Assembly (NCBI GenBank): GCA_000004985.1
Contig: GG738874.1
Length of the DNA: 64,000 bases
DNA from: Naegleria gruberi
Lineage: Eukaryota
Reading direction: 5' to 3' (one strand)
A program made the translations under genes and the position numbers. The notes under the pieces are model-generated. The model searched no databases, was not told the origin of the DNA, and saw only the letters and a program-made list of their open reading frames with translations. Positions 45,176-64,000 of the stretch are shown piece by piece (within the stretch, counting starts at the first letter, position 1; each line of letters begins with the position of its first letter).

Positions 45176-46798
45176 TTAAAAATCGTATTTCTTCTTTTTG
45201 AGTTTATCAACCTTAATCTTATCAATCTTCATTTCACGTTGGAAAGCAAGAGATTGTTTGAATCTGTGGTGAGTATCCATCATTACCAAACAAGTTTCCT
45301 TTTCCAAAATATTGAACATATCTTCTGGTAGTGTTTCAATTTGCTTATCGTTGTAACTGTCAAGCTTATCCTTGACAGCATCAGTAAGAACATGAGAAAT
45401 ATTGACAGCCATATCACCAGTAACTTCCAAAAATTCAGTAAATATCTCAAAAGCAACTTCATACTTTTTGGCTTCAACTTCAGCATATTCTTTTTCAAGT
45501 GGGGAAAGCTTCTTTTTTCCAGAGTGGGCTGAATCACCTGAAACACCTGAAATTTCACTAGAAACATCACTTTGTACATTGCTTTCTCCGAATAATCTCA
45601 TTTGCAAGTCAATGGAACGTTCGCACAATGATCTATAATAATGAATCTTTTCCAAGAGTAAAAAGTTTTCAGTTGACTTTTCCTTTTCACAATGTATCTT
45701 AAATAATGTTCTCAATCCATCATCCTCCATAGTGTCCATCAACATGACAGCATTGGCACGACGAATCTTCTCCAAATATAATGAGTCACGGTTAATGGCA
45801 TAAGTAAAGACAAATACAATGATTGGCAAAATGACGAATAGTGAAACGGCAATGACAATCAATTGAACCAAAGTAATGGCCAGAACATTCTTGTCTTTGG
45901 TACTTTCTTTCTCTTGTACAAAGGTGACCAATTTATCGAGACCTTCTTGGAAAGTTGTCTTGATTGTATTGTATGATGTTGAACTCAGTCTTGTTTTGGC
46001 ATCTTCTGGTTGTGTTCTGATAATTAGTAATATCTGAGAATTTGCTCCATCCCAATTATTTGAAGCCTCAACAGTTGTAGAGTTAAACATGGTCTGAATG
46101 GAAGCATCATCCACGTTCTTTAAAATTGTTTGTAAGGTTTTTTTCAGTGTTTGAGTAGAGTTTTTATACTCTTCCTGAACTAGTAATCTCTGATCTTCTG
46201 ATGAGTAACCAGTATAAGTATACTTTAAAACTAGAGCATTGGAGCTTTCAAAGATGGAAGTAACTTTACCAACAGCAATTAAAATATCGGTTGACTTGGT
46301 TGTGGTAGCAACGAATGCAGCAACAGCTACGCCAGCCAATACTAACAAACCAATAACTGTCACCATCATACCTAGTAAACAAGCCAATTTCATTGAAGTT
46401 AGCTCAACAACACCACAACATGTTCGCAAAGTAATTTTACTCTGACTGAAAGAACTTCCAGACCTTCCACTTTCGCTATGATTCACAAAACCAACTTGAG
46501 ATTGAGCAGCTGTTGTTTGTTTTGCTGTTGTAGTTGGTGATGCAATAGTGACCTTCTTTGAGTTATTTGTTGATGGAAGTGCTGTTATATTCATTGTGTT
46601 ATTTGGTTTGTTGTTGTCGAGTGGAGTTGTTGATTGTGGAAATGATGGTGAAGAGGACGTTGTTGGATTATTTGCTATTGTTGTTGTTGTATTGTTATTA
46701 TTGTTGGAGAGATAGGAAGTGGCATTATTGGCTTCGTTTGAGGCAGGAGCTAGTGAAGGTGAGCCTGTTGTGGAGGCTGTTGATGGTGGTGTATTCAT
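45176..46798 (-). CDS. Two-TM RGS-domain protein of 540 aa with a single exon. Paralog of 9691..11277.
   Basis: The RGS core LEKIRRANAVMLMDTMEDDGLRTLFKIHCEKEKSTENFLLLEKIHYYRSLCE is near-identical to the paralog. TM1 is KLACLLGMMVTVIGLLVLAGVAVAAFV and TM2 is LAITLVQLIVIAVSLFVILPIIVFVF. The N-terminus is Asn/Thr/Ser-rich. Confidence 0.8.
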   Translation of the reverse strand: MNTPPSTASTTGSPSLAPASNEANNATSYLSNNNNNTTTTIANNPTTSSSPSFPQSTTPLDNNKPNNTMNITALPSTNNSKKVTIASPTTTAKQTTAAQSQVGFVNHSESGRSGSSFSQSKITLRTCCGVVELTSMKLACLLGMMVTVIGLLVLAGVAVAAFVATTTKSTDILIAVGKVTSIFESSNALVLKYTYTGYSSEDQRLLVQEEYKNSTQTLKKTLQTILKNVDDASIQTMFNSTTVEASNNWDGANSQILLIIRTQPEDAKTRLSSTSYNTIKTTFQEGLDKLVTFVQEKESTKDKNVLAITLVQLIVIAVSLFVILPIIVFVFTYAINRDSLYLEKIRRANAVMLMDTMEDDGLRTLFKIHCEKEKSTENFLLLEKIHYYRSLCERSIDLQMRLFGESNVQSDVSSEISGVSGDSAHSGKKKLSPLEKEYAEVEAKKYEVAFEIFTEFLEVTGDMAVNISHVLTDAVKDKLDSYNDKQIETLPEDMFNILEKETCLVMMDTHHRFKQSLAFQREMKIDKIKVDKLKKKKYDF

Positions 46799-47949
46799 TT
46801 CTTATTATTCTTATTGAAATTGCTACCTAAAGTTTATGTTGTTATTCGAATGTGGTGTGATTTGATTGTTTTTGAAAACTTCATAACATGAATTGATTGC
46901 AAGGAGATAAATCAATTTAAGGAAATAGATTTATGAATCATGCATTCAATATCAATACTTCTTCATAACAACTTACCAAATACTCTTTGCAATTCTTCTT
47001 CTTCTCCAAGTAGTTTACCGTGAATGTTGTTGTTTGAGAATGCAAAAATTTACGGAATGATTTTGGAGGTAATCTTTGAGTTGTTTTTTTGTGTGATGTT
47101 GAAATGGTGTTGTCTTGCAAGGTCGGGTTTTTTGCTTTAATATTCTTGCTGATCGCGCTTTACTGAATCGCCTTCCTTCTTGGTGAAATGATTGCTGGAC
47201 ATATTGTGAAAGGAGGTATTTATATGGAAATTCATGCGAAAGTAAGCAAAGCCAAAGGTGGAAGTGTTTAAGGATAGATAATTAGTGTTGTTTTTAATTT
47301 TATTTGAATATTTTGAAGATATTAGATGATGAAGAAAGTGGATGAAACTATTGATTTCAGCAAAGAAAATGTAATACAACATTAGGACGGTTATTAGAAA
47401 AGACAATTTAGAAAGAAGAGACAAAGCGGATAGATTCCGATTTTAGGCAACCAATTAAATTATGGAAGCAGACGAAAATAAATGGAATTGTTGCATCTGC
47501 CTTATCAACTTTATCCTTCCAAGAGAAATAAAATAAATTTAGAAAGTTGAAATGCAACGTTCTGTGAACAGTTCCACCTTTTGGCTTTCTGTCAAATAGT
47601 GTAATGTTACTGTAAATCATGTTAAATTGAAAATTCATTTACAACATACTACAGTGAAATGGGTATTTAATTATTAGGTTTGAGTTCACTTAATTTGTTT
47701 GTCGATTTGTCTTGATGTCAGTTAAGAATTTGGAAATGTCAATAGTTCGCTGTTTGTTGCCTTGTTTGTAAAATCCATTTTCTTAAATGAGTAAAATACC
47801 CTAGTAAGAGTAGTGAAGAGCTATTTGTGATTCAATCATCAAAGTACGGTATTTTCATTACCATCTTCCTTTTATCTAATCACGAATCAAACAACTTGCT
47901 CAAATCCACATAAAAGTAAAATAATAAATTTATAATAATAAATAATAAT

Positions 47950-48881
47950 CAAGGGGGGACATAGTTATTTTTAGACAAGCTACTTGCACGGTAAAGTTTT
48001 GAAGCAACCATAGGGAGAAAGGCTTTGCTTTCTTTCTTGATATATACAATAAATGGTGAAATGAAGATTTCAGAATAGACAGTCAACTCAATGGTATATC
48101 TAAAACTTTTTTCTGTTTTTTTGGTATTATTGTAGTTATTGTGTAATATTAGTGTAAAGTTCCCATAACATTTAAAGTACCATACCATTGATATTTTCTC
48201 GCCACCATTTGAGAGATAGGTGAATAGTATCTATATAATTATACTCTAAAGAGCCGAGTCGTCAGAATCAGTATTGATCTTGGTGTATCCCACAGGAGGT
48301 AAGTAGTAGGAAATACTTCGTCAAAAAATGACTAGCGAAATTTTGTTGTAAAGAGATGAGTATTATGTCTATATATAAACAACCTCAGCCAATAAAAATT
48401 CATGGATTCGTTATAATAGATATATATTATCAGTGGTAAAATATTTGTCTGTCAATATGACTTATTAGAGTAATGTAAACTTGATGAAAGTTGTTCGTCA
48501 TTTTATCATTATTTTATAATAAGGAAAAAAATTAGTTGGTAAACTATACTTATTTTTGGAGTAAATAATTGATTTCAATCAACTATTATTTCTATAACCG
48601 TTTCTGCTAATGTCTATAAACGACTGGAAAAATATGAGAACAAACAAGCATAAATTTATTTATTAAATTAGCACAGGATAATAGAATAGTGAAAATCCAG
48701 TTGTTTATTCAATTTTGATGGAAACTGATTTTCTTTTCAAAAAATTGTCATCTTATGCATTCATTGAAGCTCAAAAATAAATTTTTTTATTTATTTTAAT
48801 TGAAAATAATGAGTTTCTTGTACCATAATATTTTTTAAAAAATGTATGACTTCAACAAATTCTTCACTATGTCCCCCCTTG
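47950..48881. mobile_element. Candidate non-autonomous hAT-like MITE of 932 bp. It has 15-bp terminal inverted repeats, CAAGGGGGGACATAG and its reverse complement CTATGTCCCCCCTTG. An 8-bp direct target-site duplication, ATAATAAT, flanks it.
   Basis: The TIR starts with CAAGG. This fits the hAT YARNG terminal motif, and an 8-bp TSD is the hAT hallmark. There is no ORF inside. The flanks are (AAT)n-like, so the TSD could be fortuitous. Confidence 0.5.
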
Positions 48882-49971
48882 ATAATAATAATGTGGTGTA
48901 AAATCTTAGAATATTCGTAAAAAAATTATGCAAATAGCCCTTTTCAGCTCTTCTGATTTTCGGAGTGGTTTTGCAGTGGGAAAGCACCAAACTTTCCCAT
49001 CATCTCAACATCATCTAAATAGTAGTAATAGTAGTAATTTTTATTGGTGGATTATGTATCATCATGAAGTTGGAATTTATTTTTCATGATGGAAAATCTC
49101 AAGTTGGTGTTCCATCATCCGATCATTCCACCAACCATCATCATTATTGTTTTCCATCAATATTAATAATAGTATTTGTGGAAATTAATTTTTAGTATTG
49201 TAATTTTGGTGAAATGTCAAAATTTTCACTAAATTCATCATCACTGCTTGATCTACTGGACAAGTTGGAAAACTGTCAATGTAGCATTGTTCGGAATGGT
49301 CAATAGTAGGTAGGAGAACTTTCTCTGATCAATTTTGGTCAAGTTATGATAGGGATAGGTACATGTGAATTTTGAAAAAGTACATGGACCATAACTCAAC
49401 ATGTACTTCACCAACTTGAATCATGTCTTTTAGTACTACTATTTAAATAGATAATAAACATCATATTTATTATCAGATTTTCATCATGTTGTCAATTTAC
49501 CAAGTTCCGATTTTTGATGCTACCAGAGTTGATTCATAGCCCAATTACAAATCAAACAACAATAAAACAACAATTCATAATGTTTATTATGTTATTAAAT
49601 GTATAATTTCAAGTCTTGTAGCATAATTTGTGAAAATCATTGATATCTGATATTTTCATGTTTTTATTGTTTTTCTCATGATGTGGAAATTGACTTCTCA
49701 CTGAAACATCACGAATAGCATGTCATTCATCCATTCTCTACCAGATAATTATCTTTTACTGTAATTTTCACTATTGGATATTACTTTTAATATTTGTGAT
49801 ACTTTACTATTTTATTCAATGAATAAGGGATGAGAAACATTCATTAGAAGAAGAAAGATTCCCAGTAATATATTCTCTCTCTGTACAATTTATTATTTCA
49901 ATATCTGTCAAATTAATTGAGATAGAAGGTATTTCATCAGCTCATATCAAAACAGCTGGAGTTGAACTACC

Positions 49972-50747
49972 TTGAAAAAGAAGCCTGGAAATTCCAGGAA
50001 AGAATTTGGAACAAAAATCTTTCCTAGAAAATCCAGAGAAAAATCTTTCCGGCTACACTCACCACAAGTTTGCTCATCACATGGTTCTTGTGTTGCTCCC
50101 AATAATTGCTCTTGCCTTAATGGATATTATGGAAGTGAGTGTGAACATTATAATTGTTATGGTATTTATTATAATTCATCACAAGTGTGCTCATCTCGTG
50201 GTGTTTGTGTTTCTCCTGAGAAATGTAAATGTTCAGATGGATATTATGGTAATAATTGTGAACAGTTCAATTGTTCTGGCGTTCATTTCAATTCATCACA
50301 AGTTTGTTCTTCACATGGCACATGTATTCTTCCAGAAAAGTGTATTTGTTCTAGCGCTGGCTGGAACTAATTGTGAGATCTATAATTGTTCTGGAATTGT
50401 AAACACCTCACCAGAAGTTTGCTCTTCACATGGTATTTGTGCATCTCCTTTTTAATTGTAAATGTTCCAATGGATATTATGGAACCATTTGTGACTTGTT
50501 TGATTGTTTCGGTGTTGAACATTCGAATAGCAGTATTGTCTGTTCAGGAAATGGTATATGCCAAACTCCAGATTTTTGTAAATGCAACAATGATCGCCAT
50601 GGAATCCAATGTGAGGCTGTAGGAAAATGTGTCACTGTTAATAATTCAACATTGTGTGCTAAATCCTCAACTCACTCCTTCGATATTCATGTAATTTTCA
50701 TGGTTGTCTTGTTGGTAGCATTGTTTTTAACTCATAACAGTTTGTAA
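49972..50747 (+). pseudogene. Truncated and decayed gene fragment. It encodes ~6 tenascin-type EGF repeats, a TM helix and a short tail (NHL/EGF surface-protein family). It lacks a start and a signal peptide. Two +1 frame breaks occur at homopolymer runs near 50365 and 50455.
   Basis: The EGF units (CSCLNGYYGSECEHYNC, CKCSDGYYGNNCEQFNC, CKCSNGYYGTICDLFDC) are spread over three frames. The frame is restored by removing 1 nt at each break. The fragment begins mid-repeat and ends VIFMVVLLVALFLTHNSL. Confidence 0.6.
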
Positions 50748-50950
50748 ATCAAATAAATGGTCTTATTATTCTGTGAAAGTAAAAGATGATGACGTGCCTC
50801 GAAACAAGTTGAATACTGTGTATGCATACTGTGATAATAGATTAATTTGGTGAGGAGACTGTTTTAATCTACGGATTACCTTTCTTGTACAGATATTCTT
50901 TATATTTTAAAATTTATTATCTTCACCTTTCAGATGGCAATTAAAAAAAA

Positions 50951-53152
50951 ATGTCTTCACTTGCTACCAGGGCACAACTGTATAATCCTGTTGGTATTTT
51001 TGTTTCATCAAATAATGAAGTTTATATTGCTGATTATAGTAATCATAGAATTAGAAAAATATTAAAAAATGGAAATATTGCAACAATCGCTGGAAAGGGA
51101 ACTTGTGGCTTCAGTGGTGATAATGGTCCTGCAACAAATGCACAAATTTATTATCCTTCTAGTGTTTTTGTTTCATCAAATAATGAGGTTTATATTGCTG
51201 ATCAAAGTAATCACAGAATTAGAAAAATATTAGAAAATGGAAATATTGTAACAATTGCAGGGAATGGAATTGGTGGCTTCAGCGGTGATAATGGTCCTGC
51301 AACAAATGCACAAATTTATTATCCTTATAGTGTTTTTGTTTCATCAAACAATGTAGTTTATATTGTTGATTATGGTAATAATAGAGTTAGAAAAATACTA
51401 GGGAATGGAAATATTGTAACAATTGCAGGAAATGGAACTTCTGGATTCAGTGGTGACAATGGTCCTGCAACAAATGCACAACTAAATAATCCTGTTGGTG
51501 TTTTTGTTTCATCAAATAATGAAGTTTATATTGCTGATCAAAGTAATCACAGAATTAGAAAAATATTAGAAAATGGAAATATTGTAACAATTGCAGGGAA
51601 TGGAACTGGTGGATTCGGTGGTGACAATGGTCCTGCAACAAATGCACAACTATATATCCCTTATAGTGTGTTTGTTTCAAACAATGAAGTTTATATTGTG
51701 GATTATGGTAATAATAGAATTAGAAAAATATTAGGGAATGGAAATATTGTAACAATTGCAGGGAATGGAACTTCTGGATTCAGTGGTGATAATGGTCCTG
51801 CAACAAATGCACAACTGAATAGGCCTTCTAGTGTGTTTGTTTCAAACAATGAAGTTTATATTGCTGATCTTAATAACCATAAAATTAGAAAAATATTAGA
51901 AAATGGAAATATTATAACAATTGCAGGAAATGGAACTAAGGGATTCAGTGGTGATTCACCATTTGATATTAGAATGTATCCTCATATTGGAAATAACTTA
52001 TTTACTGGAAGTAGTATCTTGTATTCTAAAATACAAGTTCATAATTTGTGCAAACATTCAAGAGATCAATTATTTGGATTGCAAATTTATGGATTCATTC
52101 CATTCATTGAGAAAATTTCACCACAGTTTAGTAATATTTTGAAGAATGAAAAAATACTTTGTTTGATGAGTTCATCACAACAAGAAATTATTCAAAAATT
52201 AATTGACTCTTTGATATATGATAAAGATAAGGTAATGTTTAGCAAAGAAGAAACGTTGGATGTTTTATTCATTTTGGGTTTATTCAAGAATGGTGAATTT
52301 ATTGATTTGAAAAGATCATTGACAAGTGGGTTTGTGAACTCACTCACATTAGAAAATCTTCTTTTGAAATGGGAAACAATTGAGATTTTACTGAAAATTT
52401 GCAAGGAAGAATTCAATGTTCAAAATTACATTCTTGATCATTTGAATAACTATTGTATTGAATATGCTGTTGTTCAAATGAAAACCAAAGAAGGAAACGC
52501 CTTATTATCTACCCTTCCAATAATTATGAGAAATGGTGCTACCATATTTCCAAAATTGATCATTACTCAACCAACTGCAATTAATATTGAGGAAACAATT
52601 GAGATTAAACCACAAACAATTGAATCATTATATAATGACATGAAAACAAGTGATGTGAAAATCAAAATGGGACAAAACAAATACCTATATTGTCACAAAA
52701 CTGTATTGAGTTTTTCAAGTACATTCTTTAATGCACTTTTTGACAGCGGATCTTGTTTCAGTGATTTAAGTGATGACGGAGTATTCACACTAAACGAACC
52801 AGAAGATTTGGAATTATTGGAAATTGTGATTAAATATTGTTATGGAATTTCAATTGACAAAATTGATCCTGTTAAAAGTATGGGATTACTTGATATGGCA
52901 ATGAAACATGAAATTCCATATCTGGTTGATTATTGCAAGAATAGCTTTAATCTATCTATTGATAATTACTTTAATATGCTTGAAGTATGTGAAAATTATT
53001 TTGATTTACAACTATTTGAGCCATGTTTCAGAGAATTTGTCAAATTTAGCATTGCCAACAGAAAACAACTTTTCAGTGATCGCGATAGAATTTCCAAATT
53101 ACCTGAAAAAGTGTTGCAAGAAATGGTCTTTTCGTTTTCTCAGGACTTTTGA
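50951..53152 (+). CDS. NHL-repeat (6 units) plus BTB/POZ domain protein of 733 aa. It has no signal peptide, starts mid-NHL-unit, and may be a subtelomeric chimeric gene.
   Basis: The NHL units are near-identical 55-aa repeats (NGNIVTIAGNGTSGFSGDNGPATNAQLNNPVGVFVSSNNEVYIADQSNHRIRKILE). The C-terminal BTB spans KYLYCHKTVLSFSSTFFNALFDSG...LELLEIVIKYCYGISI...MGLLDMAMKHEIPYLVDYC. Confidence 0.6.
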   Translation: MSSLATRAQLYNPVGIFVSSNNEVYIADYSNHRIRKILKNGNIATIAGKGTCGFSGDNGPATNAQIYYPSSVFVSSNNEVYIADQSNHRIRKILENGNIVTIAGNGIGGFSGDNGPATNAQIYYPYSVFVSSNNVVYIVDYGNNRVRKILGNGNIVTIAGNGTSGFSGDNGPATNAQLNNPVGVFVSSNNEVYIADQSNHRIRKILENGNIVTIAGNGTGGFGGDNGPATNAQLYIPYSVFVSNNEVYIVDYGNNRIRKILGNGNIVTIAGNGTSGFSGDNGPATNAQLNRPSSVFVSNNEVYIADLNNHKIRKILENGNIITIAGNGTKGFSGDSPFDIRMYPHIGNNLFTGSSILYSKIQVHNLCKHSRDQLFGLQIYGFIPFIEKISPQFSNILKNEKILCLMSSSQQEIIQKLIDSLIYDKDKVMFSKEETLDVLFILGLFKNGEFIDLKRSLTSGFVNSLTLENLLLKWETIEILLKICKEEFNVQNYILDHLNNYCIEYAVVQMKTKEGNALLSTLPIIMRNGATIFPKLIITQPTAINIEETIEIKPQTIESLYNDMKTSDVKIKMGQNKYLYCHKTVLSFSSTFFNALFDSGSCFSDLSDDGVFTLNEPEDLELLEIVIKYCYGISIDKIDPVKSMGLLDMAMKHEIPYLVDYCKNSFNLSIDNYFNMLEVCENYFDLQLFEPCFREFVKFSIANRKQLFSDRDRISKLPEKVLQEMVFSFSQDF
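51000..51950 (+). repeat. DNA-level tandem repeat with a ~165-bp period and ~6 copies. It encodes the NHL units of the 50951 gene.
   Basis: Blocks such as aatggaaatattgtaacaattgcagggaatggaa...ggtgataatggtcctgcaacaaatgcacaa recur almost verbatim. Confidence 0.75.
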
Positions 53153-54179: not shown

Positions 54180-54300
54180 TGAATATCATGATGTTATAAT
54201 CTATATTTCCAATTTGGAAAATGTTGCAATGTCAATGTTTAATTGAAATATTGCCATCATACCAATAATTGATTTTATAATATAAAAATGGTATTATACA
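54180..54300. repeat. Subtelomeric dispersed repeat, family A. The second copy is at 56226..56340.
   Basis: Shared string ...caatttgg(a/g)aaatgt(t/c)gcaatgtcaat(g/a)(t/c)ttaattgaaatattgccat(c/a)ataccaat(a/t)attgatt... Confidence 0.7.
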
Positions 54301-54303
54301 CTA

Positions 54304-54952
54304 NNNNNNNNNNNNNNNNNNNNNNNNNNNNNNNNNNNNNNNNNNNNNNNNNNNNNNNNNNNNNNNNNNNNNNNNNNNNNNNNNNNNNNNNNNNNNNNNN
54401 NNNNNNNNNNNNNNNNNNNNNNNNNNNNNNNNNNNNNNNNNNNNNNNNNNNNNNNNNNNNNNNNNNNNNNNNNNNNNNNNNNNNNNNNNNNNNNNNNNNN
54501 NNNNNNNNNNNNNNNNNNNNNNNNNNNNNNNNNNNNNNNNNNNNNNNNNNNNNNNNNNNNNNNNNNNNNNNNNNNNNNNNNNNNNNNNNNNNNNNNNNNN
54601 NNNNNNNNNNNNNNNNNNNNNNNNNNNNNNNNNNNNNNNNNNNNNNNNNNNNNNNNNNNNNNNNNNNNNNNNNNNNNNNNNNNNNNNNNNNNNNNNNNNN
54701 NNNNNNNNNNNNNNNNNNNNNNNNNNNNNNNNNNNNNNNNNNNNNNNNNNNNNNNNNNNNNNNNNNNNNNNNNNNNNNNNNNNNNNNNNNNNNNNNNNNN
54801 NNNNNNNNNNNNNNNNNNNNNNNNNNNNNNNNNNNNNNNNNNNNNNNNNNNNNNNNNNNNNNNNNNNNNNNNNNNNNNNNNNNNNNNNNNNNNNNNNNNN
54901 NNNNNNNNNNNNNNNNNNNNNNNNNNNNNNNNNNNNNNNNNNNNNNNNNNNN
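54304..54952. other. Assembly gap (N-run).
   Basis: 649 N. Confidence 1.
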
Positions 54953-55035
54953 TTGAAATTGATAGAAACCTCATTATATGATGTTAATAACATATTGTAT
55001 CAATTTGGTATTGAATCTCATTGTCCTTAGGGTAC
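54953..55035. repeat. Subtelomeric dispersed repeat, family B. Other copies are at 56770..56862 and partly at 62040..62090.
   Basis: Shared string tgaaattgatag(a/g)aacctc(a/t)ttatatgatgtt(a/t)ataacatattgtatca(a/g)tttggtattgaatctcattgt(c/t)cttaggg. Confidence 0.7.
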
Positions 55036-55329
55036 TTCCCTATTGAGGTACCTTAATTGACCATCTCTATATTTAAATTGAGATATGATATTTATTTCAA
55101 TTGTATCATCATTTTGTAAATGATGGATAGTAGCCAAGTTGTGTATGGTGTAGAATTGGTATAACATTATTTTCAACATTTACAAGTGCAAATTCTCATC
55201 ATCTGTTGGACCAAAACAAAAAATTTTGTTATAGTGGTGGTTTTTTTACTAATATCCACATGTACAATATCGGAACAAGGAGATGCTCTATAGTTGTGCA
55301 GAATCATTCCACCAACAATAAGTTTTTGA

Positions 55330-55440
55330 AATATTCTTTTCTTAGTGAACTTTGCTTGCATCATAATTATTAAGGAATTGTTTCAAGTAGATGGAAAGTG
55401 TTCTAAAATTGCTGTAGATGGTAACATTCCGTTACAGCAT
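55330..55440. repeat. Local duplicated segment, family C. The second copy is at 55660..55745.
   Basis: Shared string cttgcatcataattattaaggaattgtttcaagtagatggaaa(g/a)tgtt(c)taaaat(t/c)g(c/a)tg(t/g)a(g/a)atggt. Confidence 0.7.
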
Positions 55441-55745
55441 AGTTAAATTCTAAGAAATGATTGAGATTTGCCATTTTTTCACAACTGTTATCTTTTAAAC
55501 AATGGTTGTCATCCAACCCGATGTAAAAACTGTTTGAAATTGTTTCAAATGAACGTGGAGTGGCTCAAACCCGTTGCTTCTTTTCAAAAAAGAGACTTAT
55601 CCAACCTTTTGAATGAGAATGTATTAACTATACAACAAACTGAAATTTATTTTTTCTTACTGAACTTTTCTTACTTCACAATTATTAAGGAATTGTTTCA
55701 AGTAGATGGAAAATGTTCCAAAATCGATGGAAATGGTGGCAGTCC

Positions 55746-55781
55746 TTAGGGTTTGGGGGTTTGGGGGTTTGGGTTTGGTTA
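55746..55781 (+). repeat. Short interstitial telomere-like tract, gggtttgggggtttgggggtttgggtttgg. A GC-rich motif (CCTGGCGCCGGACG) follows it.
   Basis: Direct reading of the sequence. The tract has the same orientation as the terminal (GGGTTT)n blocks. Confidence 0.7.
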
Positions 55782-56862
55782 ACCTGGCGCCGGACGATTT
55801 TGTCCAAAAATCCTGCCTTTCGACCTAAAATTTTTTAGCTATGCCTTCTACACATCTATTTCTATCTACCATATTAATATCTAGTCTTGTCTTTAAGTAA
55901 TTTTCGAGAAAATAGCCTCTGATTAGAGGTCATTTTTCAATAAAATTTTCCCGCGGAAATTTTCCCGCTTTTAGTATTACAGAACTTTGACAACCTTCAA
56001 ACTCAATCAAATTAGCAAATAATCTATTTATATAAAATGGAACCCTGCCATGTGATGTATACATCAATGTTACAAATAATTGTTTGTTGGATATATTTCT
56101 CTATGTAATATATTGAGTTTGATTGAATACTGTCAATAACAACACTATTAAACTTTTAAAAGGGACCTACATTTTATTTGATAATATCATTTATCTATGT
56201 ATTGTATCGACAAAAACCTGGTATCATGATTTTATTTTCTATATATTCAATTTGGGAAATGTCGCAATGTCAATACTTAATTGAAATATTGCCATAATAC
56301 CAATTATTGATTATATATCATGAAGCTGATATTATAGACTTTATTTGATGTATATATGAATATATGATTGAAATATTTCAATTTTGACTTTTCTTAATGT
56401 CATGGGTAGTTCACTAAGGTAGTCACTTTGCCATATGACAACTATCTAAGATGATATTGAAATCATTCCAAAATTGATATTATGATAGTATTTGATGATT
56501 ACAACATGATGAAAATGAAAAGGAATTGATTATTACAATATTTGACATGTAAGAATGTTACCTTTGATCAATTGGATAAGTAGCTTGACAGACATTCCAA
56601 TTATATAGATATTGATTTCTATTACTCAGATACTTTACAAATATCATTTATAAGAGTAGTGGTATGATATTCTGTTTTTTTATACTTCTTGATATTGACT
56701 TGTCATATTATCATGAGTAATTGCTTACATGGTTAAATGACATGTATACTGAATGATGTCCAAATGATATGAAATTGATAGGAACCTCTTTATATGATGT
56801 TTATAACATATTGTATCAGTTTGGTATTGAATCTCATTGTTCTTAGGGAACTCTCCTATTAA

Positions 56863-57458
56863 ATTTTGTAAAATCAACATGTACCTTCCTGTGGCGCCAT
56901 TTCTAATTATTATGATATGAAATTGAATTCTACATCATTATAGATCATCTATATCATGTTGGTAAAGTTTCAAAAGTGGTTCTTTTTCAAGATTTTATCC
57001 TTTTCATATCTAGTTGACCATGTGTGATTGAGGGAAGAAATCTATAAATATGAAAGTCAAAATAAATTTGATATTCGATGTTTACTCATTCAAATGGAAC
57101 ATTTTCATATCAGGGTTCAATATGTTTTGATGAGAAACTCAAAAGTTATTGTTGACCTCTTTTACCTCACAACTTCCCTTTTCACTTGATACTTTTATAC
57201 CTACAGACTTGAACTTTTGAAATTTGATATGAAAGTGATTATAGATGTTGTTAATGATGATATATACTATATAATCTCATTAAAGGATTTTGAAATTATC
57301 ATTCTTCCTATGGTTTCATTTTAACAATTTTAATCTGACACTATTTATAAAGTTAATATTTTATAAATTGAAAAACTAAATATAACACGTTGTTCTACTC
57401 ATCATTTACAATCGAGGTGATATAAAATTTAATGATATTTGAATAAGTTTATAATTTN
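56863..57458. repeat. Subtelomeric tandem element, copy 1 (~600 bp). It runs into the N-gap.
   Basis: About 90% identical over its length to 62080..62668. Confidence 0.85.
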
Positions 57459-60400
57459 NNNNNNNNNNNNNNNNNNNNNNNNNNNNNNNNNNNNNNNNNN
57501 NNNNNNNNNNNNNNNNNNNNNNNNNNNNNNNNNNNNNNNNNNNNNNNNNNNNNNNNNNNNNNNNNNNNNNNNNNNNNNNNNNNNNNNNNNNNNNNNNNNN
57601 NNNNNNNNNNNNNNNNNNNNNNNNNNNNNNNNNNNNNNNNNNNNNNNNNNNNNNNNNNNNNNNNNNNNNNNNNNNNNNNNNNNNNNNNNNNNNNNNNNNN
57701 NNNNNNNNNNNNNNNNNNNNNNNNNNNNNNNNNNNNNNNNNNNNNNNNNNNNNNNNNNNNNNNNNNNNNNNNNNNNNNNNNNNNNNNNNNNNNNNNNNNN
57801 NNNNNNNNNNNNNNNNNNNNNNNNNNNNNNNNNNNNNNNNNNNNNNNNNNNNNNNNNNNNNNNNNNNNNNNNNNNNNNNNNNNNNNNNNNNNNNNNNNNN
57901 NNNNNNNNNNNNNNNNNNNNNNNNNNNNNNNNNNNNNNNNNNNNNNNNNNNNNNNNNNNNNNNNNNNNNNNNNNNNNNNNNNNNNNNNNNNNNNNNNNNN
58001 NNNNNNNNNNNNNNNNNNNNNNNNNNNNNNNNNNNNNNNNNNNNNNNNNNNNNNNNNNNNNNNNNNNNNNNNNNNNNNNNNNNNNNNNNNNNNNNNNNNN
58101 NNNNNNNNNNNNNNNNNNNNNNNNNNNNNNNNNNNNNNNNNNNNNNNNNNNNNNNNNNNNNNNNNNNNNNNNNNNNNNNNNNNNNNNNNNNNNNNNNNNN
58201 NNNNNNNNNNNNNNNNNNNNNNNNNNNNNNNNNNNNNNNNNNNNNNNNNNNNNNNNNNNNNNNNNNNNNNNNNNNNNNNNNNNNNNNNNNNNNNNNNNNN
58301 NNNNNNNNNNNNNNNNNNNNNNNNNNNNNNNNNNNNNNNNNNNNNNNNNNNNNNNNNNNNNNNNNNNNNNNNNNNNNNNNNNNNNNNNNNNNNNNNNNNN
58401 NNNNNNNNNNNNNNNNNNNNNNNNNNNNNNNNNNNNNNNNNNNNNNNNNNNNNNNNNNNNNNNNNNNNNNNNNNNNNNNNNNNNNNNNNNNNNNNNNNNN
58501 NNNNNNNNNNNNNNNNNNNNNNNNNNNNNNNNNNNNNNNNNNNNNNNNNNNNNNNNNNNNNNNNNNNNNNNNNNNNNNNNNNNNNNNNNNNNNNNNNNNN
58601 NNNNNNNNNNNNNNNNNNNNNNNNNNNNNNNNNNNNNNNNNNNNNNNNNNNNNNNNNNNNNNNNNNNNNNNNNNNNNNNNNNNNNNNNNNNNNNNNNNNN
58701 NNNNNNNNNNNNNNNNNNNNNNNNNNNNNNNNNNNNNNNNNNNNNNNNNNNNNNNNNNNNNNNNNNNNNNNNNNNNNNNNNNNNNNNNNNNNNNNNNNNN
58801 NNNNNNNNNNNNNNNNNNNNNNNNNNNNNNNNNNNNNNNNNNNNNNNNNNNNNNNNNNNNNNNNNNNNNNNNNNNNNNNNNNNNNNNNNNNNNNNNNNNN
58901 NNNNNNNNNNNNNNNNNNNNNNNNNNNNNNNNNNNNNNNNNNNNNNNNNNNNNNNNNNNNNNNNNNNNNNNNNNNNNNNNNNNNNNNNNNNNNNNNNNNN
59001 NNNNNNNNNNNNNNNNNNNNNNNNNNNNNNNNNNNNNNNNNNNNNNNNNNNNNNNNNNNNNNNNNNNNNNNNNNNNNNNNNNNNNNNNNNNNNNNNNNNN
59101 NNNNNNNNNNNNNNNNNNNNNNNNNNNNNNNNNNNNNNNNNNNNNNNNNNNNNNNNNNNNNNNNNNNNNNNNNNNNNNNNNNNNNNNNNNNNNNNNNNNN
59201 NNNNNNNNNNNNNNNNNNNNNNNNNNNNNNNNNNNNNNNNNNNNNNNNNNNNNNNNNNNNNNNNNNNNNNNNNNNNNNNNNNNNNNNNNNNNNNNNNNNN
59301 NNNNNNNNNNNNNNNNNNNNNNNNNNNNNNNNNNNNNNNNNNNNNNNNNNNNNNNNNNNNNNNNNNNNNNNNNNNNNNNNNNNNNNNNNNNNNNNNNNNN
59401 NNNNNNNNNNNNNNNNNNNNNNNNNNNNNNNNNNNNNNNNNNNNNNNNNNNNNNNNNNNNNNNNNNNNNNNNNNNNNNNNNNNNNNNNNNNNNNNNNNNN
59501 NNNNNNNNNNNNNNNNNNNNNNNNNNNNNNNNNNNNNNNNNNNNNNNNNNNNNNNNNNNNNNNNNNNNNNNNNNNNNNNNNNNNNNNNNNNNNNNNNNNN
59601 NNNNNNNNNNNNNNNNNNNNNNNNNNNNNNNNNNNNNNNNNNNNNNNNNNNNNNNNNNNNNNNNNNNNNNNNNNNNNNNNNNNNNNNNNNNNNNNNNNNN
59701 NNNNNNNNNNNNNNNNNNNNNNNNNNNNNNNNNNNNNNNNNNNNNNNNNNNNNNNNNNNNNNNNNNNNNNNNNNNNNNNNNNNNNNNNNNNNNNNNNNNN
59801 NNNNNNNNNNNNNNNNNNNNNNNNNNNNNNNNNNNNNNNNNNNNNNNNNNNNNNNNNNNNNNNNNNNNNNNNNNNNNNNNNNNNNNNNNNNNNNNNNNNN
59901 NNNNNNNNNNNNNNNNNNNNNNNNNNNNNNNNNNNNNNNNNNNNNNNNNNNNNNNNNNNNNNNNNNNNNNNNNNNNNNNNNNNNNNNNNNNNNNNNNNNN
60001 NNNNNNNNNNNNNNNNNNNNNNNNNNNNNNNNNNNNNNNNNNNNNNNNNNNNNNNNNNNNNNNNNNNNNNNNNNNNNNNNNNNNNNNNNNNNNNNNNNNN
60101 NNNNNNNNNNNNNNNNNNNNNNNNNNNNNNNNNNNNNNNNNNNNNNNNNNNNNNNNNNNNNNNNNNNNNNNNNNNNNNNNNNNNNNNNNNNNNNNNNNNN
60201 NNNNNNNNNNNNNNNNNNNNNNNNNNNNNNNNNNNNNNNNNNNNNNNNNNNNNNNNNNNNNNNNNNNNNNNNNNNNNNNNNNNNNNNNNNNNNNNNNNNN
60301 NNNNNNNNNNNNNNNNNNNNNNNNNNNNNNNNNNNNNNNNNNNNNNNNNNNNNNNNNNNNNNNNNNNNNNNNNNNNNNNNNNNNNNNNNNNNNNNNNNNN

Positions 60401-61945: not shown

Positions 61946-62079
61946 TGAAAGTGAAAATAAACTTGATTTTCTATCTCTACTCATCGAATGGAGCATTTTC
62001 ATGTATATATTGTTGGTTGAAGTGATGTATTTGATAGAGTTGGTCTGACTTGTCTTTCCTTTAAGTCAACCATAAAATA

Positions 62080-62668
62080 TCAACATTTACCTTCTCATGA
62101 TACCATTTCTGATTTTTAGGACATGAAATTGAATTCTATATCATTATAGATCATGTACATCATTTTGGTAAAGTTTTAATAGGTGGTCCTTTTTCAAGAT
62201 TTCATCCTTTTCATCCCTAGTTGACCATGATGGTTGAGGGAAGAAATCTTTAAATATGAAAGTTAAAATAAATTTGATATTCGATGTTTACTCATCAAAT
62301 GGAACATTTTCATATCAGGTTTCAATATGTTTTGATGAGAAACTCAAAAGTTATAGTTGACCTATTTTACCTCACAACTTCCCTTTTCACTCTATACTTT
62401 TATACCTACAGAGATGAACTTTTGAAATTTTATATGAAAGTGATTATGAATGTTGTTAACGATGATATATACTATATAATCTCATTAAAGGATTTTTAAA
62501 TTATCATTCTTCATATGGTTTCATTTATGAAATTTTAATCTGACATTATTTACAAAGTTAATATTTTATAAATTGAAAAACTAAATATACTACGTTGTTC
62601 TACTCATCATTTCCAATCGAATGATATAAAATATTATGATATTTGAATAAGTTTATAATTTTGGGCTA
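62080..62668. repeat. Subtelomeric tandem element, copy 2. It is preceded at 61946..62080 by a partial copy and is followed directly by telomere repeats.
   Basis: Aligns to 56863..57458. The piece at 61946-62040 aligns to an internal part of the element (57040-57135), which indicates a head-to-tail array. Confidence 0.85.
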
Positions 62669-63076
62669 GGGTTTGAACGTTGGGTTTAGAAGAATTCTGG
62701 GGGTTGGGTTTGGGTTTGGGTTTGGGTTTGGGTTTGGGTTTGGGTTTGGGTTTGGGTTTGGGTTTGGGTTTGGGTTTGGGTTTGGGTTTGGGTTTGGGTT
62801 TGGGTTTGGGTTTGGGTTTGGGTTTGGGTTTGGGTTTGGGTTTGGGTTTGGGTTTGGGTAGGGTTTGGGTTTGGGTTTGGGTTTGGGTTTGGGTTTGGGT
62901 TTGGGTTTGGGTTTGGGTTTGGTTGGGTTTGGGTTTGGGTTTGGGTTTGGGTTTGGGTTTGGGTTTGGGTTTGGGTTTGGGTTTGGGTTTGGGTTTGGGT
63001 TTGGGTTTGGGTTTGGGTTGGGTTTGGGTTTGGGTTTGGGTTTGGGTTTGGGTTTGGGTTTGGGTTTGGGTTTGGG
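62669..63076 (+). repeat. Telomere-type hexamer array (GGGTTT)n of ~65 units. It begins with degenerate units (gggctagggtttgaacgttgggtttagaagaattctggggg). A few variant units occur (GGGTAGGGTTT, GGTTGGGTTT). An N-run at 63077-63126 truncates it.
   Basis: Direct reading. The G-rich strand runs 5'->3' toward the window end. Confidence 0.9.
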
Positions 63077-63449
63077 NNNNNNNNNNNNNNNNNNNNNNNN
63101 NNNNNNNNNNNNNNNNNNNNNNNNNNTTGAATCAGGTTGATTTGCATGCAATATGAATAAGTAACATTATCAAGAGTGATTATTCACCAATTAAATAATC
63201 AATATTCAATAATCGGTTTGATTTCAATCAATAGCTTGATCAACAAGCTATGGATTAATATTCCAGTAATTAACGGCAGTCTATTTTTAAATTTAATCAA
63301 AGACCATATATAGTATCTTGACTTTTATGATCTGGAAACTATCTAGACGTGTTCTATTAGACGGTGGGCAGTGCCATGTATTCGTTGTTCCAACCAAATT
63401 TTTTTAGAGTCGAGCCAATTTTGTTAATATTTTAATATTATTTATTCTT

Positions 63450-63560
63450 CTGATGATATTTCGTCACCACTTTATTCATCACTTCCACTGTCTGACCCAG
63501 CTTGACTTGTAAATTTTTTAGCCTGACCGGCTCGACTTGGAAATTTCGCAAGTTCTGCAT
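63450..63560 (+). repeat. Three degenerate ~25-bp tandem units, (c/g)agc(t/c)(t/c)ga(c/g)tt(g)(t/g)aaattt, in the unique telomere-associated spacer.
   Basis: cccagcttgacttgtaaatttttta / gaccggctcgacttggaaatttcgc / ctctggctcggctttgaaattttta. Confidence 0.5.
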
Positions 63561-63639
63561 AAAATGCCTCTGGCTCGGCTTTGAAATTTTTACTTTGGGT
63601 TTGGATTAGAGTTGTTTTGATTTGTTACTTCGGGTTTGG

Positions 63640-64000
63640 GTTTTGATTTGTTACTTCGGGTTTGGGTTTGGGTTTGGGTTTGGGTTTGGGTTTGGGTTTG
63701 GGTTTGGGTTTGGGTTTGGGTTTGGGTTTGGGTTTGGGTTTGGGTTTGGGTTTGGGTTTGGGTTTGGGTTTGGGTTTGGGTTTGGGTTTGGTTGGGTTTG
63801 GGTTTGGGTTTGGGTTTGGGTTTGGGTTTGGGTTTGGGTTTGGGTTTGGGTTTGGGTTTGGGTTTGGGTTTGGGTTTGGGTTTGGGTTTGGGTTTGGGTT
63901 TGGGTTTGGGTTTGGGTTTGGGTTTGGGTTTGGGTTTGGGTTGGGTTTGGGTTTGGGTTTGGGTTTGGGTTTGGGTTTGGGTTTGGGTTTGGGTTTGGGT
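63640..64000 (+). repeat. Second (GGGTTT)n telomere-type array. It runs to the end of the window and is preceded by degenerate units (gggtttgggttttgatttgttacttcgggtttggg).
   Basis: Direct reading. Same orientation as the first array. Confidence 0.9.

What the first reader, a model, noticed from the sequence alone, without database searches (positions are those of the whole stretch)
49972..53152. Decaying EGF-TM gene fragment next to an NHL-BTB gene built from near-identical DNA repeats, just inside the subtelomere
The fragment at 49972-50747 has no start and begins mid-repeat. It needs two single-nucleotide corrections at homopolymer runs to read through. These are either real pseudogenising mutations or homopolymer sequencing errors. 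Immediately downstream, the 50951 ORF opens in the middle of an NHL unit. Its six NHL units are almost identical at the DNA level with a 165-bp period, which indicates very recent unit amplification. It ends in a BTB/POZ domain, an unusual partner for NHL. Together these look like ectopic recombination products of the NHL/EGF surface-protein family near the chromosome end.
Basis: partly seen in the sequence, partly recalled or inferred. Interest (0 to 1): 0.5.

Follow-up and report, generated by a model that had tools for sequence, protein, structure and literature searches.

The report
Intact NHL-BTB gene beside EGF pseudogene
Near a chromosome end of the amoeba Naegleria gruberi, a truncated and frame-shifted leftover of an EGF-repeat surface-protein gene lies next to a complete member of a Naegleria-specific gene family that joins a six-bladed NHL propeller to a BTB domain, probably a ubiquitin-ligase adaptor, so this is ordinary gene-family biology and not a fresh recombination product.

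Summary
The window is Naegleria gruberi, at a scaffold end that carries the known TTTGGG telomere repeat.

**NHL-BTB gene.** ORF 50951-53152 is the annotated 733-aa protein NAEGRDRAFT_49904. It is intact.
- Its start, MSSLAT-AQL, is shared by at least five paralogs.
- Its six 56-aa units model as a closed six-bladed NHL propeller. A helical domain and a BTB plus BACK-like module follow; the module matches the Cul3 adaptors SPOP, KLHL11, KBTBD2 and KEAP1.
- NHL-BTB is a multigene family in N. gruberi and N. lovaniensis, so the fusion is old.
- The repeat is real, but the period is 168 bp, not 165, and the units are 78-93% identical in DNA with synonymous divergence of 0.2-0.4. That is neither near-identical nor very recent.
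- Variation is concentrated at seven loop positions per blade.

**EGF-TM segment.** It is a real teneurin-type EGF remnant.
- Homology starts abruptly mid-domain at 50059.
- There is no start codon.
- Two frame breaks exist: a -2 nt lesion at a non-homopolymer site (~50356-50367) and a +1 in a T5 run (50449-50453).
- Its last 105 codons are annotated as NAEGRDRAFT_68811.

It is most likely a young pseudogene. There is no evidence that the two genes form one recombination product. Interest is low to moderate.

The parts
50059..50747 (+). Remnant of a teneurin-type EGF-repeat surface-protein gene. It holds one 5'-truncated EGF unit lacking Cys1, four complete units, a short Cys-containing stalk, and a C-terminal hydrophobic tail (IHVIFMVVLLVALFL, TM or GPI-signal-like) followed by a stop codon.
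   Evidence: Three-frame reading. tblastn to gene 25530-31076 at E 1e-30 to 1e-40. Pfam EGF_2 and EGF_Teneurin on the corrected translation. DNA homology starts at 50059.
49972..50058 (+). Open frame upstream of the remnant with no homology to EGF units and no ATG. It is probably not part of the original gene.
   Evidence: Local DNA alignment stops at 50059. No significant tblastn match upstream.
50356..50367 (+). Frame break 1, between Cys5 and Cys6 of EGF unit C. The unit is 2 nt shorter than the 117-nt register. The sequence is GCTGGCTGGAAC, which is not a homopolymer.
   Evidence: Unit spacing 117 then 115 (families D5 and D9).
50449..50453 (+). Frame break 2, a T5 run between Cys3 and Cys4 of EGF unit D. 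Removing one T restores ...CASPFNCKCSNGYYG...
   Evidence: Spacing 233 = 2x117-1.
50430..50747 (+). Annotated 105-aa 'predicted protein' NAEGRDRAFT_68811 (EFC43338.1, D2VIV2). It is the longest ATG-initiated ORF left in the remnant. Its first 8 residues (MVFVHLLF) are an out-of-frame reading of EGF unit D.
   Evidence: Exact look-up. Frames. Only sub-threshold Pfam EGF matches.
50951..53152 (+). Intact NHL-BTB gene of 733 aa, NAEGRDRAFT_49904 (EFC43339.1, D2VIV3).
   Evidence: 100% match to P0001. Pfam domains. Paralog alignment.
50969..51973 (+). Six tandem NHL blade units (168, 168, 168, 168, 165 and about 168 bp). They are predicted to form a closed six-bladed beta-propeller spanning residues 1-333.
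   Evidence: TRF. Unit alignment. AlphaFold model with pLDDT mostly above 90. Foldseek matches to teneurin-like protein, NHLRC2, TRIM71 and Pizza6 propellers.
51974..52093 (+). Low-confidence, probably flexible linker (residues about 342-381).
   Evidence: pLDDT below 50 for residues 334-381.
52088..52555 (+). Conserved all-helical domain (residues about 380-535) with no match among solved structures. Family relatives that carry ankyrin repeats or no recognised N-terminal domain also have it.
   Evidence: pLDDT about 90. (module also found with Ank or short N-termini). Foldseek alignments cover only the BTB-BACK part.
52619..52945 (+). BTB/POZ domain (residues about 557-665).
   Evidence: Pfam BTB 4.5e-11. 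Profile hits to KBTBD2, KEAP1, BCL6 and SPOP BTB. Foldseek hits to SPOP, KLHL11-Cul3 and A55-Cul3.
52967..53146 (+). C-terminal helices after the BTB domain (residues about 673-732), resembling a 3-box or BACK domain.
   Evidence: The profile alignment runs into the BTB-BACK of KBTBD2, KBTBD4 and SPOP. Foldseek aligns 170-200 columns to BTB-BACK structures.
54184..57457 (.). Subtelomeric repeat blocks, given as context. They include an interstitial telomere-like tract at 55746-55778 and a telomere-adjacent element at 56870-57457 that recurs at 62075-62661.
62700..64000 (+). Two (GGGTTT)n telomere arrays, 62700-63076 and 63658-64000, separated by a 50-N gap and about 530 bp. Given as context.
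   Evidence: TTTGGG is reported for N. gruberi in PMC3622300.

Best explanation
The region holds two unrelated neighbours at a Naegleria gruberi chromosome end.

(1) 50951-53152 is an intact, single-exon member of a Naegleria-wide NHL-BTB family. Residues 1-333 form a closed, unusually symmetric six-bladed NHL propeller. After a flexible linker come a family-specific helical domain and a BTB plus BACK-like module. I infer that it works as a SPOP-like substrate adaptor of a Cullin-3 ubiquitin ligase. In that model the BTB/BACK part dimerises and docks Cul3, and the propeller binds the substrate through the face made by its D-A and B-C loops. The seven hypervariable positions of each blade lie on that face. 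Blade similarity reflects family-wide homogenisation or blade turnover together with strong scaffold constraint. It does not reflect a just-happened amplification.

(2) 50059-50747 is a young pseudogene remnant of a teneurin-type EGF-repeat membrane protein. It lost its 5' part at a breakpoint inside an EGF domain and then acquired two frame-shifting indels. The annotated 105-aa ORF is what remains readable.

Shown here: domain content, completeness, family membership, repeat statistics, the breakpoint and the frame breaks. Inferred: Cul3 adaptor function, the binding face, and that the frame breaks are real mutations.
For: ORGANISM AND ANNOTATION; 100% matches to EFC43339.1 and EFC43338.1, both on the 401,612-bp scaffold.

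INTACT GENE. Four close paralogs start MSSLAT[SR]AQL, P0003 has MSSLVTRAQL and P0081 MSLLASRAQL, and all have the same layout. An in-frame TAA lies just upstream of the ATG. The six blades are modelled with pLDDT mostly above 90. Foldseek gives E 1e-15 to 1e-30 against six-bladed NHL propellers.

OLD FUSION. NHL plus BTB proteins occur in N. gruberi, N. lovaniensis and environmental contigs, including members only 30-35% identical in the C-terminal module.

CUL3-ADAPTOR LIKENESS. Pfam BTB 4.5e-11. A family profile hits the BTB-BACK of KBTBD2 at 7e-11 and also hits KEAP1, KBTBD4 and SPOP. The model of residues 342-733 (pLDDT 84.7, pTM 0.79) matches SPOP, the KLHL11-Cul3 complex, the vaccinia A55-Cul3 complex, KBTBD2/4 and KEAP1. 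The conserved F-x-D aligns with the L-S-E of KBTBD2, which is the phi-x-E position.

REPEATS. DNA identity 78-93%. In core codons dS is 0.19-0.42 and pN/pS is 0.27. In the seven hypervariable codons pN/pS is 4.4. Entropy is concentrated at unit positions 5, 6, 8, 23, 24, 45 and 46. These fall just before strand A, just after strand B and just after strand D in the model's DSSP assignment.

PSEUDOGENE. There is no ATG, and the homology breakpoint at 50059 leaves an EGF unit without Cys1. Nothing related lies upstream. The first lesion is -2 nt at a non-homopolymer site. No similar protein other than the ORF itself turned up for the 105-aa piece.
Against: No direct evidence exists for Cul3 binding, for a substrate or for expression. 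The phi-x-E position carries D rather than E, and that loop is modelled with low confidence (residues 599-609). BTB domains also serve purely as oligomerisation modules.

The hypervariable positions were chosen because they vary, so the pN/pS of 4.4 is inflated by ascertainment and rests on few sites.

For the remnant, every cysteine of the EGF units retained downstream of the breakpoint is still present, and the corrected frame has no stop codon over 256 codons. Either the decay is very recent or the two indels are assembly errors, and read data were not available. One indel is in a T5 run. A short upstream signal-peptide exon cannot be excluded by sequence alone.

The homolog search failed to return the annotated 105-aa protein, so its silence about paralogs is weak evidence.
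Confidence: 0.7

Rival explanations
1. The EGF-TM segment is an intact gene. On this view the two frame breaks are assembly or sequencing errors, and a short 5' exon with a start codon and signal peptide was missed.
For: Every cysteine of the retained EGF units is still present, and no stop codon occurs in the corrected 256-codon frame. One break is in a T5 run. The scaffold end is gap-rich and partly mis-scaffolded. A pyrimidine-rich ...tctttcctag acceptor-like site lies at about 50017-50026.
Against: The first break is a 2-nt shortfall in non-homopolymer sequence. Homology begins mid-domain at 50059, so the first EGF unit would lack Cys1 and leave an unpaired cysteine. No AG lies immediately before 50059. 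The related gene in this window (25530-31076) is a single uninterrupted ORF. No candidate signal-peptide ORF was found in the 3.2 kb upstream.
Confidence: 0.12
2. The annotated 105-aa ORF (50430-50747, NAEGRDRAFT_68811) is a functional small membrane protein salvaged from the remnant. Its out-of-frame N-terminus, MVFVHLLF, would act as a short signal or anchor.
For: It is an ATG-initiated ORF present in the public annotation. It retains one complete EGF unit and the hydrophobic tail.
Against: Only sub-threshold Pfam matches. It would carry three orphan cysteines from a truncated EGF unit. The N-terminal hydrophobic stretch is only about 7 residues and arises from a frameshift. No homolog was found other than itself. 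Ab initio models of this kind are common over pseudogenes.
Confidence: 0.08
3. One reading: both segments are ectopic-recombination products of the NHL/EGF surface-protein family, and the NHL-BTB gene is a recent chimera with freshly amplified blades.
For: Subtelomeric position. The window also holds a large NHL/EGF gene. The remnant is truncated at a sharp breakpoint. Blades 2/4 and 3/5 pair at about 92% DNA identity, which suggests a two-blade duplication or conversion at some time.
Against: The NHL-BTB architecture, N-terminus and length are conserved across many paralogs and in N. lovaniensis. Identity to the NHL region of the NHL/EGF gene is only 33-38%. dS between blades is 0.2-0.4. The propeller is complete.
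Confidence: 0.03
4. The NHL-BTB protein is not a Cul3 adaptor. On this view its BTB/helical module serves only for self-assembly or for scaffolding another complex, and the propeller has an RNA-binding role (as in TRIM-NHL proteins) or an enzymatic or lectin-like role.
For: Many BTB proteins do not bind Cul3. The phi-x-E glutamate is replaced by aspartate. A 150-residue helical domain of unknown function sits between the propeller and the BTB domain. NHL propellers of TRIM71 and Brat bind RNA, and TRIM71 is among the fold matches.
Against: The best sequence-profile and fold matches of the BTB region extend into the BACK/3-box. All the top ones are Cul3 adaptors, several solved in complex with Cul3. 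The layout of an N-terminal recognition domain with a C-terminal BTB-BACK mirrors SPOP.
Confidence: 0.2

Closest known systems
SPOP / MATH-BTB Cul3 substrate adaptors
   Same: The order is the same: an N-terminal substrate-recognition domain, then BTB, then 3-box/BACK-like helices at the C-terminus. SPOP is the top fold match of the C-terminal module and a profile hit. It is also lineage-expanded as a multigene family, as MATH-BTB genes are in nematodes and grasses (from my own knowledge).
   Different: The recognition domain is a six-bladed NHL propeller, not a MATH domain. An extra helical domain of about 150 residues precedes the BTB domain. Cul3 binding is untested.
BTB-BACK-Kelch proteins (KEAP1, KLHL11, KBTBD2/4)
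   Same: A BTB-BACK module combined with a six-bladed beta-propeller as the substrate binder. These give the best sequence-profile hits (KBTBD2 7e-11, KEAP1) and also fold hits.
   Different: The domain order is reversed, with the propeller first. The propeller is of NHL type, not Kelch. There is no Pfam BACK or Kelch hit.
RCBTB1/2 (RCC1 propeller followed by BTB)
   Same: An N-terminal beta-propeller followed by a C-terminal BTB domain (from my own knowledge; not tested here).
   Different: That propeller is a seven-bladed RCC1 type. No sequence relationship was detected.
TRIM-NHL proteins (TRIM71/LIN-41, Brat, Thin)
   Same: A six-bladed NHL propeller joined to a ubiquitin-ligase-related module. 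TRIM71, Lin41 and Thin NHL domains are fold matches.
   Different: There is no RING, B-box, coiled coil or filamin domain. The NHL domain is N-terminal here and C-terminal in TRIM-NHL proteins. Those proteins are E3 ligases themselves, not Cul3 adaptors.
Highly repetitive ('recently amplified') beta-propellers (Pereira & Lupas 2022, PMC9218822) and the designed Pizza6 propeller
   Same: Mean blade-to-blade identity is 78%, above that paper's 60% criterion for 'highly repetitive'. Pizza6 symmetric NHL-derived designs are fold matches. Blades are homogenised within a species.
   Different: Here the blades have diverged at synonymous sites (dS 0.2-0.4). The survey's eukaryotic cases are mostly fungal, and its main text mentions neither NHL nor Naegleria.
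Teneurin-like NHL + EGF + TM surface proteins (gene 25530-31076 in this window; PDB 9ifo 'Teneurin-Like Protein')
   Same: The remnant's EGF units have the same 39-aa, six-cysteine unit and 44-52% identity to that gene's EGF region. They match Pfam EGF_Teneurin. The NHL propeller of the NHL-BTB gene gives its best fold match to 9ifo (44% identity).
   Different: The remnant has no NHL part, no long stalk and no cytoplasmic tail. The NHL-BTB protein has no signal peptide, EGF or TM segment and shares only 33-38% identity with the neighbouring gene's NHL region.

Membership tests
NHL-repeat six-bladed beta-propeller | Repeated NHL motif recognised by the curated family model | tested here: met
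   Pfam NHL 5.2e-34 (115 bits against a cut-off of 20) and TEN_NHL 9.2e-34.
NHL-repeat six-bladed beta-propeller | Six four-stranded blades closing into a toroid | tested here: met
   The AlphaFold model has 24 strands in six blades with pLDDT mostly above 90. Foldseek gives E 1e-22 to NHLRC2, with TM about 0.83 normalised to the target.
BTB/POZ Cul3 substrate adaptor (BTB plus 3-box/BACK) | BTB/POZ fold | tested here: met
   Pfam BTB 4.5e-11, 43.4 bits against a cut-off of 20.5. Profile hits to KBTBD2, KEAP1, BCL6 and SPOP.
BTB/POZ Cul3 substrate adaptor (BTB plus 3-box/BACK) | Helical 3-box/BACK extension directly after the BTB domain | tested here: met
   Helices at residues 673-732. The profile alignment covers KBTBD2 residues 14-174 and SPOP residues 173-330. 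Foldseek aligns 170-200 columns to BTB-BACK structures. No Pfam BACK hit, so the evidence is at fold and profile level only.
BTB/POZ Cul3 substrate adaptor (BTB plus 3-box/BACK) | phi-x-E Cul3-contact motif in the alpha3-beta4 loop | tested here: inconclusive
   The conserved F-x-D (CFSDL) aligns with L-S-E of KBTBD2. Aspartate replaces glutamate, and the loop has pLDDT below 50.
BTB/POZ Cul3 substrate adaptor (BTB plus 3-box/BACK) | Physical binding to Cullin-3 and substrate ubiquitination | not testable with these tools
   This needs biochemistry. The presence of Cul3 in Naegleria was not checked here.
TRIM-NHL | RING, B-box and coiled coil N-terminal to the NHL domain | tested here: not met
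   No such Pfam hits. The NHL region starts at residue 10.
Teneurin-like NHL/EGF surface-protein family (as a source of the NHL-BTB gene) | Signal peptide, EGF array and TM segment, with close NHL similarity to family members | tested here: not met
   No EGF or TM segment in ORF 50951-53152. Its NHL region is 33-38% identical to gene 25530-31076, against 77-83% identity to NHL-BTB paralogs.
Teneurin-type EGF repeat protein (for the remnant 50059-50747) | Six-cysteine EGF units recognised by the curated models | tested here: met
   EGF_2 7.9e-20 and EGF_Teneurin 1.1e-18 on the frame-corrected translation. tblastn E down to 3e-40.
Processed or unitary pseudogene (for the remnant) | Loss of the start codon or 5' region, plus frame disruption relative to functional relatives | tested here: met
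   No ATG, and a mid-domain breakpoint at 50059. Two frame breaks. Whether these are real mutations or assembly errors is not testable here.
Highly repetitive beta-propellers (at least 60% internal symmetry; PMC9218822) | Mean blade-to-blade sequence identity of at least 60% | tested here: met
   Mean 78%, range 65-93%. The criterion is quoted from the paper.

The most novel reading that the evidence does not exclude
The Naegleria NHL-BTB genes may be a diversifying family of Cul3 substrate receptors. On this reading a nearly invariant, pseudo-symmetric six-blade scaffold displays about seven hypervariable residues per blade on the D-A/B-C loop face. Blades would be shuffled or homogenised by unequal crossing-over and gene conversion, partly in subtelomeres. 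That would make a repeat-based variable recognition system, for example against bacterial, viral or other foreign proteins, analogous to what has been proposed for the expanded MATH-BTB families. The neighbouring EGF pseudogene would then be collateral debris of the same subtelomeric turnover.
Probability: 0.15. Interest if true: 0.55.

Novelty: new variant of a known kind. Interest (0 to 1): 0.28.

Why it matters
The practical outcome is a correction. The locus is not a fresh chimera. It is an annotated but uncharacterised member of a Naegleria-specific family, next to a small pseudogene whose tail is currently annotated as a 105-aa protein (NAEGRDRAFT_68811) and probably should not be.

The family itself has modest interest for three reasons:
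- It pairs an NHL propeller with a C-terminal BTB-BACK module. I found no description of this pairing in the searchable literature.
- It is a natural example of a highly symmetric NHL propeller in a protist.
- Variation concentrated in loop positions on a fixed scaffold suggests diversifying substrate recognition.

If the Cul3-adaptor role were confirmed, it would add a new class of substrate receptor to the cullin-RING repertoire of an early-branching eukaryote. It would also give protein designers a natural counterpart of Pizza-type symmetric propellers.

Tried and rejected
- I looked for decayed NHL or EGF sequence upstream of the remnant (46.8-50.07 kb) with permissive tblastn (word size 2, E up to 20). 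Nothing rose above noise. This rejects the idea that a whole NHL/EGF gene is decaying in place.
- From reading the frames, I suspected a third frameshift just upstream ('NLSGYTH' in another frame). Local DNA alignment did not support homology upstream of 50059, so I dropped it.
- The look-up of encoding contigs for the window protein and for P0004 returned nothing, because the N. gruberi genome is not indexed there. I therefore could not examine paralogous loci or test whether EGF genes neighbour other NHL-BTB genes.
- A homolog search with the corrected 256-aa fragment returned only a 46%-identical metagenomic protein, P0121, with a different architecture. It missed the annotated 105-aa protein, so I do not use it as evidence of absence. 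A search with the 105-aa protein found only itself.
- Single-sequence phmmer of the C-terminal half against PDB gave nothing. A family profile was needed.
- Rfam and tRNA scans of the whole window gave no hits.
- Exact look-ups of small ORFs in the 3.2-kb ORF-poor stretch found none of them annotated.
- I considered introns as an explanation for the frame breaks and rejected it. The EGF units are contiguous across both breaks, with only -2 and +1 nt, which leaves no room for an intron.

Full report
**Origin of the window.** The 733-aa translation of 50951-53152 is 100% identical to a Naegleria gruberi 'predicted protein' on a 401,612-bp scaffold. Its identifiers are EFC43339.1, D2VIV3 and NAEGRDRAFT_49904. 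The window is 29-37% G+C outside its N-gapped end and is packed with long uninterrupted ORFs. It ends in (GGGTTT)n arrays at 62700-63076 and 63658-64000. TTTGGG is the candidate telomere repeat reported for N. gruberi (PMC3622300). A telomere-adjacent element occurs twice, at 56870-57457 and 62075-62661, with 91% identity. Further repeat blocks start at about 54184. 'Just inside the subtelomere' is therefore correct. However, the end of the scaffold appears to be several chromosome-end contigs strung together across N gaps.

**The NHL-BTB ORF: what is there.** Pfam finds NHL (5.2e-34), TEN_NHL (9.2e-34) and BTB (4.5e-11, residues 561-665).
- Tandem Repeats Finder reports 50972-51955 with period 168, 5.9 copies, 86% matches and score 1387.
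- Cutting the ORF at the [NR]AQ motif gives six units. Four are 56 aa, the fifth is 55 aa, and the sixth was cut at a 56-aa window (168 or 165 bp).
- Pairwise DNA identity is 77.6-92.7%. Units 2/4 and 3/5 are the closest pairs, at about 92%.
- Protein identity is 65-93%, with a mean of 78%.
- Nei-Gojobori estimates between blades give dS of 0.19-0.42 and a pooled pN/pS of 0.27 for the scaffold codons.

The repeat is real and strikingly regular. The period is 168 bp, not 165, and the units are neither near-identical nor the product of a very recent amplification.

**The NHL-BTB ORF: is it truncated or chimeric?** It is not.
- Four close N. gruberi paralogs (77-83% identical; 679-928 aa) begin MSSLAT[SR]AQL, and two more begin with one-residue variants of it. 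They have the same order of parts. More distant paralogs and N. lovaniensis proteins add only a short N-terminal extension or a seventh blade.
- An in-frame TAA lies immediately upstream of the ATG.
- An AlphaFold model built on the paralog alignment gives six four-stranded blades for residues 1-333 with pLDDT mostly above 90. Foldseek matches six-bladed NHL propellers: a teneurin-like protein at 2.7e-30, then NHLRC2, SOQ1, TRIM71/Lin41, Thin and the designed Pizza6.

The N-terminal 'LATRAQL' resembles the inter-blade 'PATNAQL' because that is where a blade begins. It does not indicate that a seventh unit was cut.

**Age and spread of the fusion.** A full HMMER scan with residues 342-733 found 139 cluster representatives, 24 of them at E<=1e-10.
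- The better ones cover the whole helical plus BTB module.
- Many of them carry NHL repeats in front. Others carry ankyrin repeats or no recognised N-terminal domain.
- The named ones are N. gruberi or N. lovaniensis. The rest are unnamed environmental contigs.
- The NHL part of the window gene is only 33-38% identical to the NHL part of the neighbouring NHL/EGF gene at 25530-31076.

The architecture therefore predates the split of Naegleria species. It was not made locally from the surface-protein family.

**Blade homogeneity is a family trait.** Within-protein blade identity is 54-89% across family members. It is highest in N. lovaniensis, where the blades share a species-specific signature, KIMKNGMITTIAG, against KILENGNIVTIAG in N. 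gruberi. That pattern points to concerted evolution or repeated blade turnover.

Across 23 blades from five close paralogs, variability is concentrated at unit positions 5, 6, 8, 23, 24, 45 and 46. The rest of the unit is almost invariant. In the model's secondary structure these positions fall just before strand A, just after strand B and just after strand D. By the standard propeller topology these are the D-A and B-C loops, which form one face and usually form the ligand-binding face. This mapping is an inference from established knowledge.

At these codons the window gene's own blades show pN/pS of 4.4. The sites were picked for being variable, so this is only suggestive.

**How the NHL-BTB protein probably works.**
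- A single-sequence search of PDB found nothing.
- A profile of 15 C-terminal modules hit the BTB-BACK of KBTBD2 (7e-11) and also hit KEAP1, BCL6, KBTBD4 and SPOP. The alignments run well past the BTB core into the following helices.
- A separate model of residues 342-733 (pLDDT 84.7, pTM 0.79) matched SPOP, KLHL11-Cul3, vaccinia A55-Cul3, KBTBD2/4 and KEAP1 by Foldseek. About 170-200 columns aligned, all within the BTB-BACK part.
- The helical domain in front of the BTB (residues about 380-535) had no structural match.
- The conserved F-x-D aligns with the L-S-E (phi-x-E) of KBTBD2.

My best mechanistic reading is a SPOP-like Cul3 substrate adaptor with an NHL propeller as the recognition domain. 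Nothing here tests Cul3 binding, so an oligomerisation-only or other role remains a live rival.

**The EGF-TM segment: what is there.** Three-frame translation shows teneurin-type EGF units running from frame 1 to frame 2 to frame 3, ending in a hydrophobic tail and a stop codon at 50747.
- tblastn with the neighbouring NHL/EGF protein gives 44-52% identity at E down to 3e-40.
- The frame-corrected translation matches EGF_2 (7.9e-20) and EGF_Teneurin (1.1e-18) and has no internal stop over 256 codons.
- Unit spacings are 117, then 115, and 233 for two units. The first break is therefore a 2-nt shortfall, within GCTGGCTGGAAC at 50356-50367, which is not a homopolymer. The second is one extra T in a T5 run at 50449-50453.
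- DNA homology to the 117-nt unit begins abruptly at 50059, at unit position 55. The first unit therefore lacks Cys1. The stretch 49972-50058 is simply open frame.
- There is no ATG in the frame.
- The 3.2 kb upstream has no ORF longer than about 100 codons and no trace of NHL or EGF coding sequence.

**The EGF-TM segment: interpretation.** An exact look-up showed that the 105-aa ATG ORF at 50430-50747 is annotated as NAEGRDRAFT_68811 (EFC43338.1, D2VIV2). It sits between D2VIV1, the RGS-like gene at 45176-46798, and D2VIV3. Its first eight residues are an out-of-frame reading of an EGF unit, and it reaches no Pfam threshold. A homolog search with it found only itself.

Four features favour a pseudogene: the mid-domain breakpoint, the missing start codon, a non-homopolymer 2-nt lesion, and a second indel within 100 bp. 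Two features point the other way: every cysteine in the units retained downstream of the breakpoint is intact, and there are no nonsense codons. The decay is therefore very recent, or the indels are assembly errors. I put the pseudogene reading at about 0.75-0.8. It could not be settled without reads.

**Relationship between the two.** They are separated by 203 bp. The first ends with a membrane anchor and a stop codon. The second starts with the family's conserved methionine. They belong to different families: one protein is extracellular, and the other lacks a signal peptide and has a BTB domain typical of intracellular proteins. I see no evidence for a joint recombination origin or a joint transcript.

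**Comparison with what is known, and verdict.** The gene is already in the databases as an uncharacterised predicted protein. Beta-propeller-BTB Cul3 adaptors are well known, including BTB-Kelch, RCBTB and, in topology, MATH-BTB/SPOP. Highly repetitive propellers are also well known (PMC9218822). A full-text search for Naegleria, BTB and NHL together found no relevant paper. I therefore rate the NHL-BTB family as a new variant of a known kind and the EGF remnant as an ordinary pseudogene.

Noticed in passing
window 23825-24895 vs 30463-31529: A 1071-bp block bracketed by two 50-N gaps is 99.4% identical, in direct orientation, to the 5' end and upstream region of the NHL/EGF gene at 25530-31076. 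It is probably an allelic or misplaced contig and not a true duplication.
   Followed up: partly
window 54184-64000: The scaffold end looks like several chromosome ends in series. A telomere-adjacent element occurs twice (56870-57457 and 62075-62661, 91% identity). The first copy runs into a 4488-N gap. Two separate (GGGTTT)n arrays follow (62700-63076 and 63658-64000), and an interstitial telomere-like tract TTAGGGTTTGGGGGTTTGGGGGTTTGGGTTTGG lies at 55746-55778.
   Followed up: partly
window 46799-50058: This 3.2-kb AT-rich stretch (28.6% G+C at 48-50 kb) has no ORF over about 100 codons, no RNA family or tRNA hit, and no similarity to the neighbouring genes. That is unusually long for this gene-dense window. 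It might be the sequence that replaced the 5' part of the EGF gene.
   Followed up: partly
window 11656-17136 (-) and 18514-22512 (-): Two tandem paralogous genes encode TmcB-type TPR, PAS and adenylate/guanylate cyclase domains.
   Followed up: no
window 528-2996 and 3466-5193 (+): Long Lys/Ser-rich low-complexity ORFs with imperfect 30-99-bp internal repeats.
   Followed up: no
window 50951-51973 (NHL region) vs database: The NHL blades are 41-57% identical to many bacterial and metagenomic NHL-repeat proteins, such as Spirosoma and Bryobacteraceae 'TIGR03437 family' proteins. They are only 33-38% identical to the eukaryotic NHL/EGF neighbour. This may reflect consensus-like repeats or an old bacterial origin.
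   Followed up: no
paralogs P0002 (928 aa) and P0010 (819 aa), not in the window: These N. gruberi models contain an internal re-start of the NHL region after part of the helical domain. They may be tandem gene pairs fused by the annotation, or assembly collapses. This hints at tandem arrays of NHL-BTB genes. P0002 and P0005 lie on one scaffold with UniProt accessions about 12 apart.
   Followed up: no
tool behaviour: The word-indexed homolog search with the 256-aa corrected fragment did not return the 105-aa annotated protein, which is 100% identical over about 96 residues. Negative results from that search on Cys-rich repeats should not be trusted.
   Followed up: yes
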